From positions 1-11,255 of the IMG/VR virus record IMGVR_UViG_2541047875_000011: DNA of 11,255 nucleotides. One strand, written 5' to 3'. The position numbers were made by a program, and so were the translations under genes. The notes below the pieces were generated by a model. It worked only from the letters and a program-made list of their open reading frames with translations. It had not been told where the DNA came from and ran no database searches. Positions 2,925-8,594 of this stretch are shown here, piece after piece. Source of the DNA: a virus (taxonomy: Duplodnaviria > Heunggongvirae > Uroviricota > Caudoviricetes). Numbering within the stretch: the first letter of the stretch is position 1; every line of letters begins with the position of its first letter.

Positions 2925-2934
2925 TGGGGTGAAT

Positions 2935-5289
2935 ATGGCAGTAAAGATTTCAGGTGTACTGAAAGATGGTGCAGGTAAGCCGGTACAAAACTGCACTATT
3001 CAACTGAAAGCCAGACGTAACAGCACCACGGTGGTGGTGAACACGGTGGCCTCAGAAAATCCGGATGAAGCAGGTCGTTACAGCATGGATGTTGAGTACG
3101 GTCAGTACAGCGTCAGTCTGTTGGTGGAGGGGTTCCCGCCGTCACATGCCGGGACCATCACCGTCTATGAAGATTCCCGACCCGGTACGCTGAATGATTT
3201 TCTCGGTGCCATGACGGAGGATGATGCCCGTCCGGAGGCACTGCGGCGTTTTGAACTGATGGTGGAAGAAGCGGCACGTAACGCTGAAGCCGCCTCTAAG
3301 AGCGCAGCGGCGGCAAAGAAATCCGAAACTGCAGCGGCATCATCGAAGAACGCGGCGAAAACCTCAGAAACGAATGCAGCTAATAGTGCACAGGCGGCAG
3401 CGACCTCACAGACTGCATCAGCAAACTCCGCGACAGCAGCCAAAAAATCAGAAACCAACGCGAAAAACAGCGAGACAGCCGCAAAGACGAGTGAAACTAA
3501 CGCAAAGTCCAGCCAGACGGCAGCGAAGACCAGCGAAACGAATGCCAAAGCCAGTGAAACTGCGGCGAAAAGCAGTCAGGATGCAGCAGCCGAAAGCGAG
3601 AGTGCTGCAGCCGGTTCTGCGACTTCAGCAGCTGGATCAGCAACTGCTGCGGCTAACAGCCAGAAAGCCGCGAAGACGAGCGAAACTAACGCAAAGTCCA
3701 GCCAGACGGCAGCGAAGACCAGCGAAACGAATGCCAAAGCCAGCGAAACTGCGGCGAAAAACAGTCAGGATGCAGCAGCCCAAAGCGAGAGTGCCGCAGC
3801 TGGTTCTGCAACAGCGGCAGCTAATAGCCAAAAAGCTGCAAAAACCAGTGAAACTAACGCAAAGACGAGTGAAACAAAAGCAGCAGCCAGCGAGACAGAA
3901 GCAACGTCAGCCGCAACAAGAGCAGAGAATGCAGCCCGGATTGCAGAAGATGCCGCTGATCCTGCTTCTGTCCCTCCGCTTCCTGATATCTGGCTACCCT
4001 TGAATGATTCTCTGGAAGCGATAACAGGGTATGCCCCGGGCTATAAAACAATAACCATCGGCAGTGATGAAATAACAATGCCTGTTAATGGCATATGCCA
4101 ATTTAGCCGGGCTTCATCTGCAACGTATATTGATAAGTCCGGGCATATTACCGTGGCAGGGAATAACGTTCCTCGTTTTGAAAAATATGGTTTGCTGATA
4201 GAGAATCAGCGAACAAACATGTTCGTAAATAGTTTTAATCCTGATGCCTGGAATAAAAGCGGTGGTATATCTGTAACATCATCAACAGATGAATTTGAGT
4301 TTAAATATGGACGTTTCACGGTAGGAAGCGATATAGCAGGAACGACAACAGGGCGAAATATATGCACAGTTGCTGGTAACAAAGGCATAGATGTGACTGG
4401 CGATGATCAGTACAGTAAAGGTCCGTATGTTACCGCGTCGTTCAGGGTAAGAAGTGATCTCAATGTTCGCGCACGTATCCGTTTTGAACGGTATAACTCG
4501 GAAGGATACACCTTCCTTTGCGACGCCTATTTGTCATTACAGACCCATGAACTACAAATTACTGGTGGCAATGCCCAGCTATTAACAGCAAACTTTGAAA
4601 TCGATCCAGGTAGTGGATGGATATATTTTCAGGCAACACTGAAATGTCTGCCAGAATGGGGAATGGTTGGTACGCAGCTGCAAATTGCAGCCGACAGAGC
4701 AGTGGGGGCTTTTGCAACAGGTGACTGGATAGAAGTAACCACCCCGCAATTCGAGTATGGTGCCTGTGCAACTTCCTTTATCATAACGACAACAGAGCCA
4801 GCGACTCGTGCATCAGATTTATGTAAATTTCCGCTGATGAAAAATATGTATACCATGCCTTTTACGTTCATGGTGGAAGTCCATAAAAACTGGTTTATTT
4901 CTCATAATGCTGCACCGCGTGTCATTGATTCAGAAAATCACCAGTCCGGAGGCCCATTTATTATGGGGTTTGGTTCTTCTGGAACTATCAGTCAGGATGG
5001 TTATTCGTATTGCGATATAGGCGGGGCTAACCGGCGTGTATATGAGTCATGCGGAGTAAGAGATCTCGTTATGGGATTCAGGGTTAAGGCTGACGGCATG
5101 ACATGCTCATTTGCAAATAAGAATATAAGCACTGAAACCAAAACAGTATGGAAATATATTCGTGAAGCAGCCGTGATTCGTATCGGGGGGCAAACGACGA
5201 CAGGATTACGACACCTTAATGGTCATATAAAAAACCTCCGTTTCTGGAACAGAGCATTGTCAGATACGCAGATTAAGGAATACGTATAA
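2935..5289 (+). CDS. stf: Side tail fibre protein, mosaic: lambda Stf-like N-terminal anchor, Ala/Ser/Thr/Lys repeat shaft, and a divergent low-GC C-terminal module ending in a LamG/ConA-like motif
   Basis: The track ORF starts at GTG 2929, but ATG 2935 gives MAVKISGVLKDGAGKPVQNCTIQLKA, matching the lambda/Rac Stf N-terminus, with SD GGGGTG upstream. The middle has KTSETNAKSSQTAAK-type repeats as in StfR. After ~3955 the sequence is unrelated and AT-richer, ending ...LNGHIKNLRFWNRALSDTQIKEYV, which resembles the last strand of LamG-type jelly-roll domains. Stop TAA at 5287-5289. Confidence 0.85.
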   Translation: MAVKISGVLKDGAGKPVQNCTIQLKARRNSTTVVVNTVASENPDEAGRYSMDVEYGQYSVSLLVEGFPPSHAGTITVYEDSRPGTLNDFLGAMTEDDARPEALRRFELMVEEAARNAEAASKSAAAAKKSETAAASSKNAAKTSETNAANSAQAAATSQTASANSATAAKKSETNAKNSETAAKTSETNAKSSQTAAKTSETNAKASETAAKSSQDAAAESESAAAGSATSAAGSATAAANSQKAAKTSETNAKSSQTAAKTSETNAKASETAAKNSQDAAAQSESAAAGSATAAANSQKAAKTSETNAKTSETKAAASETEATSAATRAENAARIAEDAADPASVPPLPDIWLPLNDSLEAITGYAPGYKTITIGSDEITMPVNGICQFSRASSATYIDKSGHITVAGNNVPRFEKYGLLIENQRTNMFVNSFNPDAWNKSGGISVTSSTDEFEFKYGRFTVGSDIAGTTTGRNICTVAGNKGIDVTGDDQYSKGPYVTASFRVRSDLNVRARIRFERYNSEGYTFLCDAYLSLQTHELQITGGNAQLLTANFEIDPGSGWIYFQATLKCLPEWGMVGTQLQIAADRAVGAFATGDWIEVTTPQFEYGACATSFIITTTEPATRASDLCKFPLMKNMYTMPFTFMVEVHKNWFISHNAAPRVIDSENHQSGGPFIMGFGSSGTISQDGYSYCDIGGANRRVYESCGVRDLVMGFRVKADGMTCSFANKNISTETKTVWKYIREAAVIRIGGQTTTGLRHLNGHIKNLRFWNRALSDTQIKEYV
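3478..3865 (+). repeat. Tandem direct repeat (~189 bp and ~168 bp units, about 2 copies plus degenerate shorter units) inside the stf shaft region
   Basis: The string GAAACTAACGCAAAGTCCAGCCAGACGGCAGCGAAGACCAGCGAAACGAATGCCAAAGCCAG occurs near 3493 and again near 3682 with few mismatches; copy 2 lacks a 21-nt segment. Degenerate 15-18-nt units (AAxACxAGxGAAAC) extend over about 3290-3900. Confidence 0.8.
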
Positions 5290-5558
5290 TGCGGGATATA
5301 ACATTACGATTCGATAACAGAGAACAGTTTAACGCAATTGTATATGACAGTGGCCTGTTCAGTCTTGAAGAAGAAAATGGGATTCTTGTTGATGTTATTG
5401 GCGGCATTATTGATTACGAGGAGCCAGAAAACGAAAGATGTACAGGCATTGATCGCGGTGGTTTTTTCGTAAACATGAGGATTGTTGATGGCAGTAAAAA
5501 CATATCTTCTTTAATGCCTTTCATTACGACAGATCAGCATGTAAGGACATGGGCTTAA
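5289..5558 (+). CDS. Small acidic hypothetical protein (89 aa), translationally coupled to stf; possible fibre-associated chaperone or accessory protein
   Basis: ATG 5289-5291 overlaps the stf stop as TAATG. SD-like AAGGAA at 5275-5280. Low-GC and acidic (many D/E). Function is inferred from position only. Confidence 0.5.
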   Translation: MRDITLRFDNREQFNAIVYDSGLFSLEEENGILVDVIGGIIDYEEPENERCTGIDRGGFFVNMRIVDGSKNISSLMPFITTDQHVRTWA

Positions 5559-5684
5559 TGGAGCTTGCTTGTTCAGGTAGCCAGAGAATCAGACGACAGA
5601 ATAACAGCACTGGAAGAAGAAAACGCAGAATTAAGACAAAGATTATCTGCAATTGAGGCGGCGCTTGCGTCTGAATAATATTAA

Positions 5685-5707
5685 GGGGCCGAGCGCCCCG
5701 TTTTATT
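5685..5707 (+). terminator. Candidate rho-independent terminator
   Basis: Stem GGGGC (5685-5689) / GCCCC (5695-5699), loop CGAGC, then GTTTTATT. Confidence 0.55.
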
Positions 5708-5720
5708 GGGTAGGATGAAA

Positions 5721-6014
5721 ATGGATATAACACCTTTCCTTCATGCACTTTGTGCTGTGGCTGCGCAGGTACTGATTGGCCTTTTTACCGGAAACTGGGT
5801 TTACGGTGCGATAGCTGGTTGTACGTTCTTCATTGCGCGGGAACACACCCAGGCAGAATATCGCTGGATTGAAATGTTCGGGCATGGCAAGCGAATGAAT
5901 ATGCCGTGGTGGGGCGGTTTTGATCCGCGTGCTTGGGATGTGGCAAGCCTGATGGATTTTGCTGTGCCGGTGGTGGCGTGTCTGCTGGTCTGGCTGTTGG
6001 TTAATCGTGGGTGA
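5721..6014 (+). CDS. Hypothetical small membrane protein (~97 aa, two predicted transmembrane helices); moron-like
   Basis: ATG 5721 with AGGA 5 nt upstream (the track extends it to TTG 5706). Two hydrophobic stretches, FLHALCAVAAQVLIGLFTGNWVYGAIAGCTFFIA and SLMDFAVPVVACLLVWLLV. Preceded by a terminator and a possible sigma70 promoter (TTGAGG 5653-5658, 17-bp spacer, TAATAT 5676-5681). Confidence 0.55.
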   Translation: MDITPFLHALCAVAAQVLIGLFTGNWVYGAIAGCTFFIAREHTQAEYRWIEMFGHGKRMNMPWWGGFDPRAWDVASLMDFAVPVVACLLVWLLVNRG

Positions 6015-6024
6015 AAAAAGGTGA

Positions 6025-6146
6025 GCTGTATATGCAACGGAGGAAGAAACCCCGTTGCTGGCGGCATGGAAGAAGTATCGGGTGCTGCTCAACCGAACTA
6101 TACATCAGTAGCTCCGGACATTGAGTGGCCTGTACAACCGGAATAA
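6025..6146 (+). pseudogene. tfa: Remnant of the 3' end of a tail fibre assembly gene (tfa), frameshifted; N-terminal ~150 codons absent
   Basis: Frame 1 (6025-6111) reads AVYATEEETPLLAAWKKYRVLLNRTIHQ*, matching the conserved lambda Tfa C-terminal motif ...EETSLLEAWKKYRVLLNRVD. Frame 3 (6093-6146) then reads PNYTSVAPDIEWPVQPE*, matching Tfa ...TSTAPDIEWPAVPVME*. A 1-nt frame change lies near 6096-6099. No upstream tfa reading frame exists. Confidence 0.65.
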
Positions 6147-6168
6147 ATATCAGGAGGAGTAATTAATC

Positions 6169-7304
6169 GTGTCGACTCTGATTTCCGGCGTATTAAAAGA
6201 TGGTGCAGGTATACCGCTGGCTGCCAGATTATCCTGAAATCCCGTGTAAACACCTCAGATGTGGTGATGTCTGTTGTTGCGCATATTGTAACCGGGCAAA
6301 ACGGGGAATATGCGTTTGAGGCCCGGACGGGGAAGTACAGCGTTTATCTGAAGACTGACTGGCGTAATGAGTTTCAGGTTGGTGTTATTTCTGTTTATGA
6401 GGACTCACAACCGGGCACACTGAACGACTTCCTGATAGCAGTGAGTGATGCTGATTTGAAGCCGGACGTTCTGCGGCGGTTCGATGAGCTGGCGAGGCGT
6501 GTCCATGAAGACGCGAACAGCGCAGAACAGTTTGCCGGAGATGCCCGTCGTGCTGTGGATGAACTGGGCGGTAAGGTTCAGGACGATATTCGTGACCGTA
6601 CACCGGACCGTCTGGCTCTGCCCGGTGCTTACGGCTTCGGCGGAATATTCAGCCGCTCGGAAGCTCTGTCGTTTCAGGGGGTATCTGATTTTGGTGCGTG
6701 GCTACAGAAAGCCACGCCGGGGCGTTATCCGGTCACTGTTGCGGATTCTTCTGCATTGCTGTTGGGCACCACGAAATTTAACGGCAACATTGATGTGCTG
6801 TGGTCACCCTTTGATAACGACGGGTCGGACACAGCGCACAAATTCAAAACGCTGTTGTGTTACAACGAGCCACGTGCCGGAGAGCACGGGCTACACCTGC
6901 TCCAGTACTGGTACGAGGGCGACAACCTGCGGGTTGCGGGCAGTATGATAGTCTGCGACGCTCCGTCGCTGGCGACACTGCTGTCAGCAACAGCGGGAGC
7001 GGACCCGTCAGGGTTCTACCGTTATCCGGCGGTGGGTTCCCTGTTGCTGGCAGCGTACCACGGGGCATCTGCCGGTGCTGGCGGGGTGAGTATTGCAACA
7101 GGCGACGTTGTTCCGGGCTCCTGTCTGGGGCCGGTGAGTATTCCGTGCGCGGTGAACGAAGGCGGCACAACTCCGTCGCCGCTGCGGGCGTTTGTTGGTG
7201 GTGCCGGACAGTACAATTTCCCCGGACGTTACCAGGCGTTATCCGGTGCAAATAATGTCCGTGGAAACAATGGGTTTATCTGTCTGTTTGTGCGCGTTGA
7301 GTAG
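6169..7304 (+). pseudogene. Second side tail fibre gene with a frameshift in the N-terminal anchor region; likely decayed, or expressed from an internal start
   Basis: SD AGGAGG (6152-6157). A GTG at 6169 opens frame 1, giving VSTLISGVLKDGAGIPLA and then a stop at 6235-6237; this parallels Stf MAVKISGVLKDGAGKPV. Frame 3 continues ...CQIILKSRVNTSDVV... (parallel to CTIQLKARRNSTTVV) through to TAG at 7302-7304. It also contains a shared VYEDSQPGTLNDFL motif. The frame change is near 6219-6225, with no homopolymer or slippery heptamer. Confidence 0.6.
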
Positions 7305-7311
7305 GTGAGAA

Positions 7312-7905
7312 ATGAACGCAGTAAAAGATATTCGCAATCCGGTGCATCTCGGAAACGGCGCGGTTGACTGTGAGGTGCTGTTTGAGGGGCGCAGCGAGTA
7401 CGTTGTTTATACGGCTGCGCCGGGCGACGCAGCCCCGACAGGTCAGCGTATCTGGCAGGAACTACAGAGCGGCAAATGGGGCGAAATTGCCCCGTTCACG
7501 GCCACGCCGGAACTGATAGCGGCGGCGAAGGATGCAAAACGTCAGGAAATTGAGGTGTGGCGTACCGAACAGGAAGCGCAGTCGTTCACGTTTGAGTGGA
7601 ACGGTCGAACCTGGAACGCGGGGCCGTCCTCACTGGCCCGGCTCACGCCTGCGATTACGGCGGCGGAATACGCCGGCGAGCAGGCTGTTACCTGGAGCGA
7701 TACAACCAACGAGCCGGTAAACCTGACAGTGCAGGAACTGAAATCGCTGGCCGTCGCACTGGCTCAGGCACTCTCTGAGCGGAACAACGCGATTTATCGT
7801 CGCCAGCGGGAGATGAAGGATACGTTAAACACCCTGGAGAATCTGGCAGAGGTGCAGGCGTTTAAGGTTGGAGAACAATCTATATTGGGGGTAAGCCGTA
7901 TTTAG
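7312..7905 (+). CDS. Hypothetical protein (197 aa) immediately downstream of the second fibre gene; possible fibre assembly or chaperone-like protein, family not confidently recognised
   Basis: ATG 7312 with SD GGTGAG 4-5 nt upstream. Its C-terminus lacks the Tfa LL.EAW..YRVLLNRVD motif, so it is not a classical Tfa. The assignment is positional. Confidence 0.45.
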
Positions 7906-8209
7906 CTCTTGCGCGGTTACACGCCTCATTGACGACGCCGTTCTCGCCAGACATGGCGAATTCTCTGCATGTGGATGATCGATTTTCATATATCGTGCAG
8001 CAGGCATTTTTGCCCGGAGTTCCAGCAAGGGCAACACATCTGGGGTTTTTCTGGTTTGTACCGATCATGCATCGGTGAAAAGGCGATACTTGTTCAGTAA
8101 GTCTGGCGGGAATGGTGCCGCCGGCATCGTCGGCTTCGGCCCAGTAAAAAGAGACGCGGAAAAATGCACAACAGGCGCCACACGTCATGCATGGATTCAG
8201 ATTGCTCAT
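7880..8209 (-). CDS. YkgJ-family Cys-cluster protein (CxxCxxCC putative zinc/iron-chelating domain), 109 aa
   Basis: N-terminus [21 protein letters not shown] contains C-x2-C-x2-CC, plus further C-terminal cysteines. Its 3' end overlaps the convergent ORF 7312-7905 by 26 bp. Confidence 0.65.
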
Positions 8210-8241
8210 AATTCACCAGTACAGCTATAAATCATAAAGAA

Positions 8242-8278
8242 AACAGCGGTACGTCGTATGAAAGAACTTACCGCTGTT
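8242..8278 (-). terminator. Candidate stem-loop / terminator downstream of the dinI-like gene on the minus strand
   Basis: 10-bp inverted repeat AACAGCGGTA (8242-8251) / TACCGCTGTT (8269-8278) with a 17-nt loop. On the minus strand it is followed by TTCTTTAT. An outer inverted repeat TTCACCAG (8212-8219) / CTGGTGAA (8281-8288) flanks it. Confidence 0.3.
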
Positions 8279-8345
8279 GGCTGGTGAACTTTTCGATAGT
8301 GCGAGTATTGAATGATTTCCAGCCGTTACCGATTTTACTCGTTAA

Positions 8346-8594
8346 TTAGCGAACAAACCACTCGTCAGCAGACTCCCAGGTATCTTTCAGCGTCTCCTGA
8401 ACAAAAGTTTTTGCAGAATCTTTATCGGCGGTGCGAGTAACTGAAAGGCCATCGTTGCTGGTGGCTTTTATGATCACTTCTACATCGTCATAACGCTTAC
8501 TGATGCGTCGGGTTAATTCTTCCTTTAACGCATCCACAGCACCGTTTGGCATTTTAGTCATTTTTTCTTTGGCTATGCAGATCTCAATACGCAT
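8346..8594 (-). CDS. DinI-like protein (DinI family, SOS-induced RecA modulator homologue), 82 aa
   Basis: [31 protein letters not shown]...[11 protein letters not shown] resembles E. coli DinI (MRIEVTIAK ... ETWESADDWF). SD GAGGGA upstream; tandem LexA boxes in the promoter region. Confidence 0.8.

What the first reader, a model, noticed from the sequence alone, without database searches (positions are those of the whole stretch)
5640..6014. Membrane-protein moron inserted where the tfa N-terminal half should be
A 97-aa protein with two predicted transmembrane helices sits between the fibre module and the tfa 3' remnant. It has its own SD and is preceded by a hairpin and a possible sigma70 promoter, which suggests it may be expressed independently of late tail transcription, potentially in the lysogen. 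Small membrane proteins encoded next to receptor-binding genes are classically superinfection-exclusion or receptor-masking factors (for example Cor of phi80/N15 and Llp of T5). This is inference from context, not homology.
Basis: inference. Interest (0 to 1): 0.6.

Follow-up and report, generated by a model that had tools for sequence, protein, structure and literature searches.

The report
Conserved membrane protein behind tail fibres

Summary
The ORF is real: 5721-6014, 97 aa, PHROG family phrog_1443, with no Pfam, NCBIfam, PADLOC or PDB match. It is under purifying selection (dN/dS about 0.11; 85 of 86 Escherichia copies keep an uninterrupted reading frame). The 761-bp stretch 5500-6260 around it matches 1910 of 5426 complete E. 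coli genomes.

AlphaFold gives three helices, not two. The hairpin at 5685-5699 is an intrinsic terminator. No sigma-70 site passes the scan.

The window is the right end of a lambdoid prophage at dusA. The order is stf, an 89-aa protein, a deletion scar of an S74 tail-fibre gene, the terminator, ORF97, and a tfa remnant. The ORF97/tfa-remnant junction is old and shared, including with a plaque-forming phage.

Published RNA-seq of E. coli LF82 decides the expression question. The Tritos prophage has the same upstream 120 bp except for one base. Its copy stays at background in all five conditions, while the fibre gene just upstream is induced. The P22-like Gally copy has its own spacer and is induced in macrophages.

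Relatives sit just after receptor-binding genes in at least eight phage lineages, but also in non-phage chromosomal sites. Function is unknown; envelope-level exclusion is my best guess, at about 0.3.

The parts
2929..5289 (+). Side tail fibre gene stf1 (786 aa): phage_tail_N domain, Ala/Ser/Thr-rich repeats, and a 'head spike fibre' C-terminal part (phrog_1419)
   Evidence: orthologous order stf-p93-(S74 fibre)-ORF97
5289..5558 (+). 89-aa protein of unknown function (phrog_1361, 'p93'). It is the constant neighbour between stf and ORF97 in Escherichia prophages.
   Evidence: macrophage-induced orthologues TRITO_20 and PERCE_23
5558..5678 (+). Deletion scar of a 346-aa Peptidase_S74 (intramolecular chaperone) tail-fibre gene. 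The start ATG is fused out of frame to the last 38 codons (5565-5678, ...LEEENAELRQRLSAIEAALASE*).
5685..5709 (+). Intrinsic terminator: stem GGGGC/GCCCC, 5-nt loop, then GTTTTATTGG
   Evidence: about 20-fold drop in RNA-seq signal across the identical element in LF82 Tritos
5711..5715 (+). Shine-Dalgarno-like TAGGA, 5 nt before the ATG at 5721
   Evidence: Gally has AAGGAG at the same place
5721..6014 (+). ORF97: a conserved three-helix inner-membrane protein, family phrog_1443 (RefSeq WP_016245272.1, 'hypothetical protein'; some UniProt entries use 'Ybl63')
6034..6146 (+). Frameshifted 3' remnant (about 37 codons) of a tail fibre assembly gene, with no start codon. It is a recombination scar shared with LF82 Tritos and phage HannyBb.
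6169..7304 (+). Second side tail fibre gene, with a frameshift in its first ~33 codons. It is context only and not part of the ORF97 unit.

Best explanation
ORF97 is a real accessory gene of the uncharacterised family phrog_1443. It encodes a small polytopic inner-membrane protein with three helices. A conserved polar cluster (H8, R40-E41-H42, E46, D79) and a Trp-rich loop (MPWWGGF) are predicted to lie at the cytoplasmic face.

The gene travels as cargo at the distal end of receptor-binding modules and was brought here by tail-fibre module exchange. The tfa remnant is the scar of that exchange.

In this window's arrangement it is not an autonomous lysogenic moron. An intrinsic terminator immediately upstream insulates it from transcription entering from the fibre genes, and no active promoter lies in between.

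By inference it is made mainly when Q-antiterminated late transcription reads through that terminator, together with the tail-fibre genes.

Most likely role (inference, about 0.3): it acts on the envelope of the infected or lysogenic cell in a way that does not depend on the particular receptor. Examples would be blocking genome entry at the inner membrane or altering a shared step of surface-glycan assembly. Either would protect the cell and the phage's progeny from further phage attack.
For: Shown:
- The gene is real and under selection.
- The three-helix model is confident, and K+R counts put the 35-residue loop on the cytoplasmic side: 5.5 K+R there against about 0-0.6 elsewhere.
- Polar residues are invariant across 45%-identical homologues.
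- A terminator-like hairpin is present and no promoter hit was found.
- The regulatory region is identical to LF82 Tritos apart from one base.
- In LF82 RNA-seq, TRITO_22 stays at 2.8-3.8 log2(fpkm+5) in all ten samples, while TRITO_21 and TRITO_20 just upstream reach 7.0-8.3 in macrophages (PMC9928086, S1 Table).
- None of the three LF82 copies met the authors' moron criterion in LB.
- The family sits immediately after receptor-binding genes in many settings:
  - lambda-like phages;
  - P22-like phages;
  - SSU5-like phage-plasmids;
  - an Ackermannviridae-like contig, between two tailspikes;
  - a Citrobacter lambdoid prophage;
  - Comamonas, Pantoea and Acidovorax siphophages;
  - the Halomonas myophage phiHAP-1, after tfa;
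  - DGR prophages, between the variable target gene and avd.
- In several of these the start overlaps the upstream tail gene's stop, which implies late co-expression.

Inferred from established lambda biology: Q-modified RNA polymerase reads through intrinsic terminators.
Against: - No functional data exist for any family member.
- The RNA-seq comes from another strain and covers five conditions. The one differing base (5673) lies beside the only -10-like element. Unique-mapping filters under-count the 96%-identical Tritos and Perceval copies.
- Read-through during lytic growth has not been measured.
- Homologues in Aeromonas lie in a conserved non-phage site: pirin, ORF, a RIO1-like kinase, then two lipid A acyltransferases. 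Most alphaproteobacterial homologues lie next to housekeeping genes. This fits a general membrane function at least as well as phage exclusion.
- Four virulent phages carry only a decayed copy behind an S74 tailspike.
- The distal end of tail-fibre clusters is a general landing site for cargo, so adjacency alone does not show a receptor-related role.
Confidence: 0.45

Rival explanations
1. Host-fitness cargo unrelated to phage exclusion. On this view it is a small membrane protein with a general physiological activity, such as stress tolerance in nutrient-poor or intracellular conditions. Phages would have picked it up from bacterial chromosomes and kept it because it helps lysogens.
For: - The family has non-phage chromosomal members, syntenic across four Aeromonas species and scattered among housekeeping genes in sphingomonads.
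- Gally's copy rises from background in LB to about 330-420 fpkm in macrophages, above the tailspike gene and with late genes silent. Perceval's copy is significantly up in macrophages (log2FC 3.0, q = 1.9e-5). This parallels known fitness morons such as bor.
Against: - In the window-type arrangement the gene is silent in the same conditions.
- E. coli genomes that match have a median of two places and up to eight, and nearly all copies read are intact. This is easier to explain by selection on each phage than on the host.
- The repeated placement right after receptor-binding genes, often translationally coupled, is not needed for a host-fitness gene.
Confidence: 0.25
2. A helper for the phage's own lytic cycle: a holin-like or antiholin-like membrane protein, or a factor needed for fibre function or release, made late with the tail genes.
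For: - It is about 100 aa with three helices, like class I holins.
- In beta-proteobacterial siphophages it lies at the junction between tail-fibre genes and a lysis cassette (an endolysin 116 bp downstream in Acidovorax; a Peptidase_M15_4 endolysin two genes downstream).
- Late co-expression is implied by overlapping stop and start codons.
Against: - The E. coli prophages that carry it have complete S/R/Rz-type lysis cassettes elsewhere.
- It lacks the charged C-terminal tail of holins and has a long, invariant loop.
- It is expressed in Gally lysogens without lysis.
- It has chromosomal homologues far from phage genes.
- It has decayed in virulent phages that keep the adjacent S74 tailspike.
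- Only 1 of 65 members gave a weak holin-profile hit, E = 0.0036.
Confidence: 0.12
3. Receptor-specific masking or modification. On this view the protein blocks or alters the very receptor recognised by the adjacent fibre, as Cor and Llp do for FhuA, or as small serotype-conversion proteins do next to tailspike genes.
For: - It is adjacent to receptor-binding genes. Many of these are glycan-directed: Peptidase_S74 fibres, pectate-lyase tailspikes and a P22-type tailspike.
- In Gally it occupies the slot between the tailspike gene and int. From general knowledge, P22-like phages carry O-antigen conversion genes in that slot.
Against: - The protein is 60-98% conserved while the linked receptor-binding proteins are unrelated to each other. 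A receptor-specific factor should co-vary with them.
- It is an inner-membrane protein without a signal peptide or lipobox, so it cannot bind an outer-membrane receptor directly.
- Here the linked S74 fibre gene has been deleted, yet ORF97 is intact.
- It is silent in lysogens of this arrangement.
Confidence: 0.1

Closest known systems
Cor (phi80/N15/T1) and Llp (T5) receptor-blocking lipoproteins
   Same: They are small envelope proteins encoded next to receptor-binding genes. They protect the cell or the progeny from phages that use the same receptor.
   Different: They are outer-membrane lipoproteins with a signal peptide and a lipobox cysteine. ORF97 has neither (HALC is not a lipobox, and C11 is only 45% conserved). 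It is predicted to be a three-helix inner-membrane protein, and no profile similarity was found.
Inner-membrane superinfection-exclusion proteins (T4 Imm, P22 SieA, HK97 gp15)
   Same: They are small membrane proteins of the cytoplasmic membrane that act independently of outer-membrane receptor identity by blocking genome entry. This is the mechanism I consider most compatible with a conserved protein linked to diverse fibres.
   Different: There is no sequence or profile similarity. Those genes are expressed in lysogens or early in infection and do not lie behind fibre genes. ORF97 of this arrangement is silent in lysogens. No exclusion phenotype has been tested.
Moron / lysogenic-conversion slots at the end of tail gene clusters (lambda lom, P2 Z/fun between G and FI, P22 gtrABC between the tailspike gene and int)
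   Same: The genomic positions match: after stf in lambdoids, between tfa and the sheath gene in phiHAP-1, and between the tailspike gene and int in Gally. Gally's copy has the terminator-then-spacer layout and prophage expression.
   Different: In the window there is no promoter between terminator and ORF, no terminator after the ORF, and no lysogenic expression of the near-identical Tritos copy. There is no homology to Lom, GtrA or Z/Fun.
Class I holins (lambda S105)
   Same: They are about 100 residues with three transmembrane helices, and are late-expressed. ORF97 relatives lie next to lysis cassettes in some beta-proteobacterial phages.
   Different: ORF97 has no charged C-terminal tail and has a long, invariant cytoplasmic loop. 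It is expressed without lysis, and it has chromosomal homologues. Its carriers have their own holins.

Membership tests
Cor/Llp-type receptor-blocking lipoproteins | N-terminal signal peptide ending in a lipobox [LVI][ASTVI][GAS]C | tested here: not met
   The N-terminus MDITPFLHALCAV has no positive n-region. HALC does not fit the lipobox, and C11 is conserved in only 45% of homologues.
Cor/Llp-type receptor-blocking lipoproteins | Sequence or profile similarity to the family | tested here: not met
   PHROGs returns only the unknown-function families phrog_1443 and phrog_34165. Pfam, NCBIfam and PADLOC return nothing.
Moron (autonomous prophage-expressed unit) | Own promoter upstream and own terminator downstream of the gene | tested here: not met
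   There is no sigma-70-like site on the + strand between 5200 and 5721. The only terminator lies upstream of the ORF, and none follows it before 6400. In Gally the layout is met: terminator at 3789-3809, a 190-bp spacer and a candidate promoter at 3826-3855.
Moron (autonomous prophage-expressed unit) | Transcription in the lysogen independent of late genes | tested here: not met
   Published RNA-seq was used. TRITO_22, whose upstream region matches the window apart from one base, stays at background in all five conditions. No LF82 copy reaches 5x background in LB. The P22-like copy GALLYPH_17 does meet this in macrophages.
Superinfection-exclusion proteins of the inner membrane (Imm, SieA, gp15) | Location in the cytoplasmic membrane | tested here: inconclusive
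   This is predicted only, from three hydrophobic helices and the K+R distribution. There is no experimental localisation.
Superinfection-exclusion proteins of the inner membrane (Imm, SieA, gp15) | Reduces infection by other phages when expressed | not testable with these tools
   This needs plating, adsorption and DNA-entry assays. No published data were found.
Class I holins | Three TM helices plus a short, highly charged cytoplasmic C-terminal tail; lethal hole formation when expressed | tested here: not met
   The C-terminal tail is 3-6 residues with about 0.5 K+R. Gally's copy is expressed at about 330-420 fpkm in surviving lysogens.
phrog_1443 (unknown function) | Full-length profile match | tested here: met
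   E = 6.7e-59, residues 1-96 against profile positions 1-96 of 97.
GtrA-like or other O-antigen conversion membrane proteins | Profile similarity to GtrA (Pfam) or to acyltransferase families | tested here: not met
   There is no Pfam hit for the query or for 65 distant members.

The most novel reading that the evidence does not exclude
phrog_1443 may be a new, widespread family of phage-borne inner-membrane proteins that travel with receptor-binding modules across sipho-, podo- and myoviruses and phage-plasmids. It would act through a conserved polar site at the cytoplasmic membrane face, either blocking genome entry or altering a shared step of envelope-glycan assembly. That would make it a previously unrecognised superinfection-exclusion or envelope-conversion system, in a DNA segment matched by about a third of complete E. 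coli genomes.
Probability: 0.25. Interest if true: 0.7.

Novelty: new variant of a known kind. Interest (0 to 1): 0.42.

Why it matters
The 761-bp stretch that holds the gene matches 1910 of 5426 complete E. coli genomes, often in several places per genome. The gene is strongly conserved and has no name, no domain and no literature.

It repeatedly follows receptor-binding genes in phages as different as lambda-like, P22-like, SSU5-like, Ackermannviridae-like, P2-like and DGR phages. This makes it a well-defined candidate for a general phage-encoded envelope function.

If it excludes other phages, it would affect predictions of host range and the choice of therapeutic phages against E. coli.

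The comparison of three copies in one strain shows that the same cargo gene can be insulated, co-transcribed or autonomously expressed, depending only on the few hundred bases in front of it. That is a caution against calling morons from layout alone.

Tried and rejected
Searches that found nothing useful:
- Pfam, NCBIfam and PADLOC on the protein, and Pfam on 65 distant members: no family.
- PDB profile search: no hit.
- Rfam on the whole window: nothing.
- Literature searches for FIG00639861, Ybl63, phrog_1443 and the RefSeq accessions: no paper.
- The LF82 CRISPRi gut screen does not mention the gene.

Readings rejected:
- Holin, for the reasons given under rivals.
- Lipoprotein: no lipobox.
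- A chance or antisense ORF: the 129-aa ORF on the minus strand (5703-6092) is the shadow of ORF97.
- A unique insertion into tfa in this strain: the junction is shared by LF82 Tritos, phage HannyBb and many IMG/VR prophages.

Other dead ends:
- Looking for conserved chromosomal neighbours as a functional clue. Only Aeromonas shows synteny, and there the genes are convergent. Alphaproteobacterial neighbours are unrelated to each other.
- The hairpin's folding energy alone is not distinguishable from shuffles (z = -0.95). The terminator call rests on its shape and on the RNA-seq drop.

Full report
**Setting**

The window is the right end of a lambdoid prophage integrated at dusA in E. coli. It is 100% identical over 5500-6260 to strain A24 and two others, and only 8 genomes share this exact arrangement.

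The gene order is:
- J (25-2208)
- lom (2276-2875)
- side tail fibre stf1 (2929-5289)
- an 89-aa protein (5289-5558, phrog_1361)
- a 114-bp remnant of a tail-fibre gene (5565-5678)
- the ORF in question (5721-6014)
- a frameshifted tfa 3' remnant (6034-6146)
- a second, N-terminally frameshifted stf (6169-7304)
- a DUF4376 fibre-assembly gene (7312-7905)
- on the minus strand, a YkgJ-like gene, a DinI-like gene and the integrase
- dusA and pspG

Yes, with corrections.
- The ORF is intact. It has an SD-like TAGGA 5 nt before the ATG at 5721.
- It belongs to PHROG family phrog_1443 (E = 7e-59, function unknown).
- It has 575 relatives at the 90% cluster level, all 'hypothetical' and none with a Pfam domain.
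- A profile search of 1.8 billion representatives finds 452 clusters. All of the 150 listed are stand-alone proteins of about 63-146 residues, most near 100.
- Among 86 Escherichia copies, 85 keep an uninterrupted reading frame; six of those differ only at the stop codon or the extreme C-terminus. The median pairwise dN/dS of 43 alleles is 0.11.
- H8, R40, E41, Q44-A45-E46, W72 and P83 are invariant or nearly so, even in homologues 30-55% identical. The motif MPWWGGF is invariant among closer ones.

The AlphaFold model is confident (pLDDT 92.9) and has three helices at 4-23, 26-53 and 74-96. Hydropathy gives two strong peaks and one moderate peak. The 35-residue loop carries about 5.5 K+R against 0-0.6 elsewhere. 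I therefore read it as an inner-membrane protein with the loop and the polar cluster at the cytoplasmic face. This is a prediction, not a demonstration.

**The upstream elements**

The hairpin at 5685-5699 followed by GTTTTATT matches the terminator pattern. No sigma-70-like site is found on the + strand. Only 36 bp separate the upstream stop codon from the first ATG, and the hairpin fills them.

The sequence just upstream is the tail end of a Peptidase_S74 (intramolecular chaperone) fibre gene. In relatives this gene is 346 aa long. In the window an internal deletion joins its start codon, out of frame, to its last 38 codons.

**The 'insertion into tfa'**

The junction between ORF97 and the tfa remnant is base-for-base the same in LF82 prophage Tritos and in the isolated phage HannyBb. 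It is present in most of the 86 Escherichia loci I classified.

Those loci fall into two main layouts:
- stf, p93, ORF97, with no hairpin (about 47 loci).
- stf, p93, S74 fibre, hairpin, ORF97 (about 24 loci).

The window is a rare deletion derivative of the second layout (3 loci). The tfa fragment is therefore an old scar of fibre-module exchange, not a local event.

**Expression**

Misson et al. 2023 (PMC9928086) published RNA-seq of E. coli LF82. By sequence, LF82 carries three copies of the family. Values below are log2(fpkm+5), where 2.32 means zero reads.

| Copy | Layout | LB | Macrophages | Neighbouring genes |
|---|---|---|---|---|
| TRITO_22 (Tritos) | window-type; differs from the window by one base in the 120 bp before the ORF | 2.8-3.8 | 3.2-3.8 | p93 and S74 fibre genes upstream climb to 7.0-8.3 |
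| PERCE_24 (Perceval) | stf-p93-ORF, no terminator | 3.2-3.8 | 5.6-6.4 (log2FC 3.0, q = 1.9e-5) | rises together with stf and p93; J stays silent |
| GALLYPH_17 (Gally, P22-like) | behind a 9-bp-stem terminator and a 190-bp AT-rich spacer holding a candidate promoter | 3.75-4.5 | 7.9-8.7 | above the tailspike gene in four of five conditions; terminase and portal at background |

- For Tritos, TRITO_22 also stays at 2.8-3.8 in the two other bacteria-only conditions. The drop across the hairpin is about 20-fold.
- The Perceval data come, the Gally data.
- The authors listed none of the three copies as a moron in LB.

The same cargo gene is thus insulated, co-transcribed or autonomous depending on what lies in front of it. 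The window has the insulated form.

By inference from lambda biology, Q-antiterminated late transcription should read through the hairpin, so the protein would be made with the fibres during lytic growth. That step has not been measured.

Three caveats apply. The data come from another strain. The one differing base lies next to the only -10-like element. Unique-mapping filters under-count the 96%-identical Tritos and Perceval copies.

**Where else the family occurs**

In phages it lies immediately after receptor-binding genes again and again:
- lambda-like phages
- P22-like phages, between the tailspike gene and int
- an SSU5-like phage-plasmid
- a 160-kb Ackermannviridae-like contig, between two pectate-lyase tailspikes
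- a Citrobacter lambdoid prophage, after a pectate-lyase spike
- Comamonas, Pantoea and Acidovorax siphophages, after J, a fibre and a DUF4376 assembly protein
- Halomonas myophage phiHAP-1, after tfa and before the sheath gene, which is the P2 Z/fun slot
- DGR prophages, between the variable target gene and avd and the reverse transcriptase

Several of these starts overlap the preceding stop codon.

The association is not universal:
- A copy in a 92-kb plasmid lies among early 'ea' genes.
- Aeromonas jumbo phages carry one next to a helicase/terminase gene.
- Four virulent phages keep only a decayed fragment behind an S74 tailspike.
- In Aeromonas the gene sits in a conserved non-phage site: pirin, ORF, a RIO1-like kinase and two lipid A acyltransferases.
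- In sphingomonads and other alphaproteobacteria the neighbours are housekeeping genes with no common theme.

**What it does**

This is unknown. Nothing in Pfam, NCBIfam, PADLOC, the PDB or fold libraries resembles it, and I found no paper on it.

The protein is conserved while the linked receptor-binding proteins are unrelated to one another. It is predicted to lie in the inner membrane without a lipobox. Here it has outlived the deletion of its fibre partner. Together these points argue against masking of a specific receptor in the manner of Cor or Llp.

My ranking of the possible roles is:
1. A receptor-independent envelope role, such as blocking genome entry or touching a shared step of glycan assembly. 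I prefer this weakly, at about 0.3.
2. A general fitness function for lysogens, at about 0.25.
3. A lytic-cycle helper, at about 0.12.

**Verdict**

The 'independently expressed lysogenic moron' reading is not supported for this arrangement. The exclusion idea remains an untested possibility.

The family itself is a reasonable target for experiments. It is common, conserved, unnamed and consistently tied to host-recognition modules.

Noticed in passing
window 5558-5678: Deletion scar of a 346-aa Peptidase_S74 tail-fibre gene. Its ATG is fused out of frame to the last 38 codons, leaving a 32-codon junk ORF (MELACSGSQ...). Only 8 of 5426 complete E. coli genomes cover at least 80% of the 5500-6260 query in one place, so this arrangement is rare.
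   Followed up: yes
window 5289-5558; LF82 TRITO_20 and PERCE_23: The 89-93-aa protein (phrog_1361, no Pfam) always lies between stf and ORF97. Its LF82 orthologues are the most macrophage-induced genes of the fibre region (up to 8.3 log2 fpkm) while J upstream is silent. This suggests an internal promoter near the 3' end of stf and a role beyond virion assembly.
   Followed up: partly
window 6169-7304: A second side tail fibre gene has a frameshift within its first ~33 codons (RefSeq starts it at 6267). It is followed by an intact DUF4376 assembly gene. The prophage thus carries two fibre sets, at least one of them damaged.
   Followed up: partly
window 2929-5289 (repeats about 3300-3900): stf1 is an intact 786-aa ORF here, but RefSeq splits the identical gene of strain A24 into two 'incomplete' pseudo-CDS. 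The cause is probably the Ala/Ser/Thr-rich tandem repeats (AAKTSETNAKSSQT...).
   Followed up: no
L161 3465-3620 (Escherichia phage HC6; also ST1UNAM, PBM-2, PBM-3): Virulent phages carry a frameshifted fragment of the family (…IPWWGGFDWRAWDLPSLLD*) right after a Tail_spike_N + Peptidase_S74 tailspike. It looks as if an S74 receptor-binding gene and ORF97 were acquired as one block and the ORF then decayed.
   Followed up: partly
L115 and L116 (Comamonas nitrativorans, Pigmentiphaga humi), 7947-8300: A family member sits between the 383-aa putative variable target protein (phrog_2889) and the Avd and reverse-transcriptase genes of a diversity-generating retroelement.
   Followed up: partly
L157 (Aeromonas rivipollensis) 6001-6309: This is a chromosomal, non-phage copy, conserved in position across four Aeromonas species. 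It lies between a pirin gene and, convergently, a RIO1-like kinase and two lipid A acyltransferase genes. It may hint at an envelope-lipid link, but the genes are not in one operon.
   Followed up: partly
window 7880-8594, minus strand: YkgJ-family Cys-cluster and DinI-like genes lie between the fibre-assembly gene and the integrase. These are further accessory cargo at the prophage end next to dusA.
   Followed up: no
LF82 Cartapus CARTA_20 and CARTA_21 (PMC9928086, S1 Table): Fibre-assembly genes next to the DNA invertase of the P2-like prophage are also induced in macrophages while baseplate genes stay silent. Transcription of the distal fibre segments in lysogens may therefore be a general phenomenon.
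   Followed up: no
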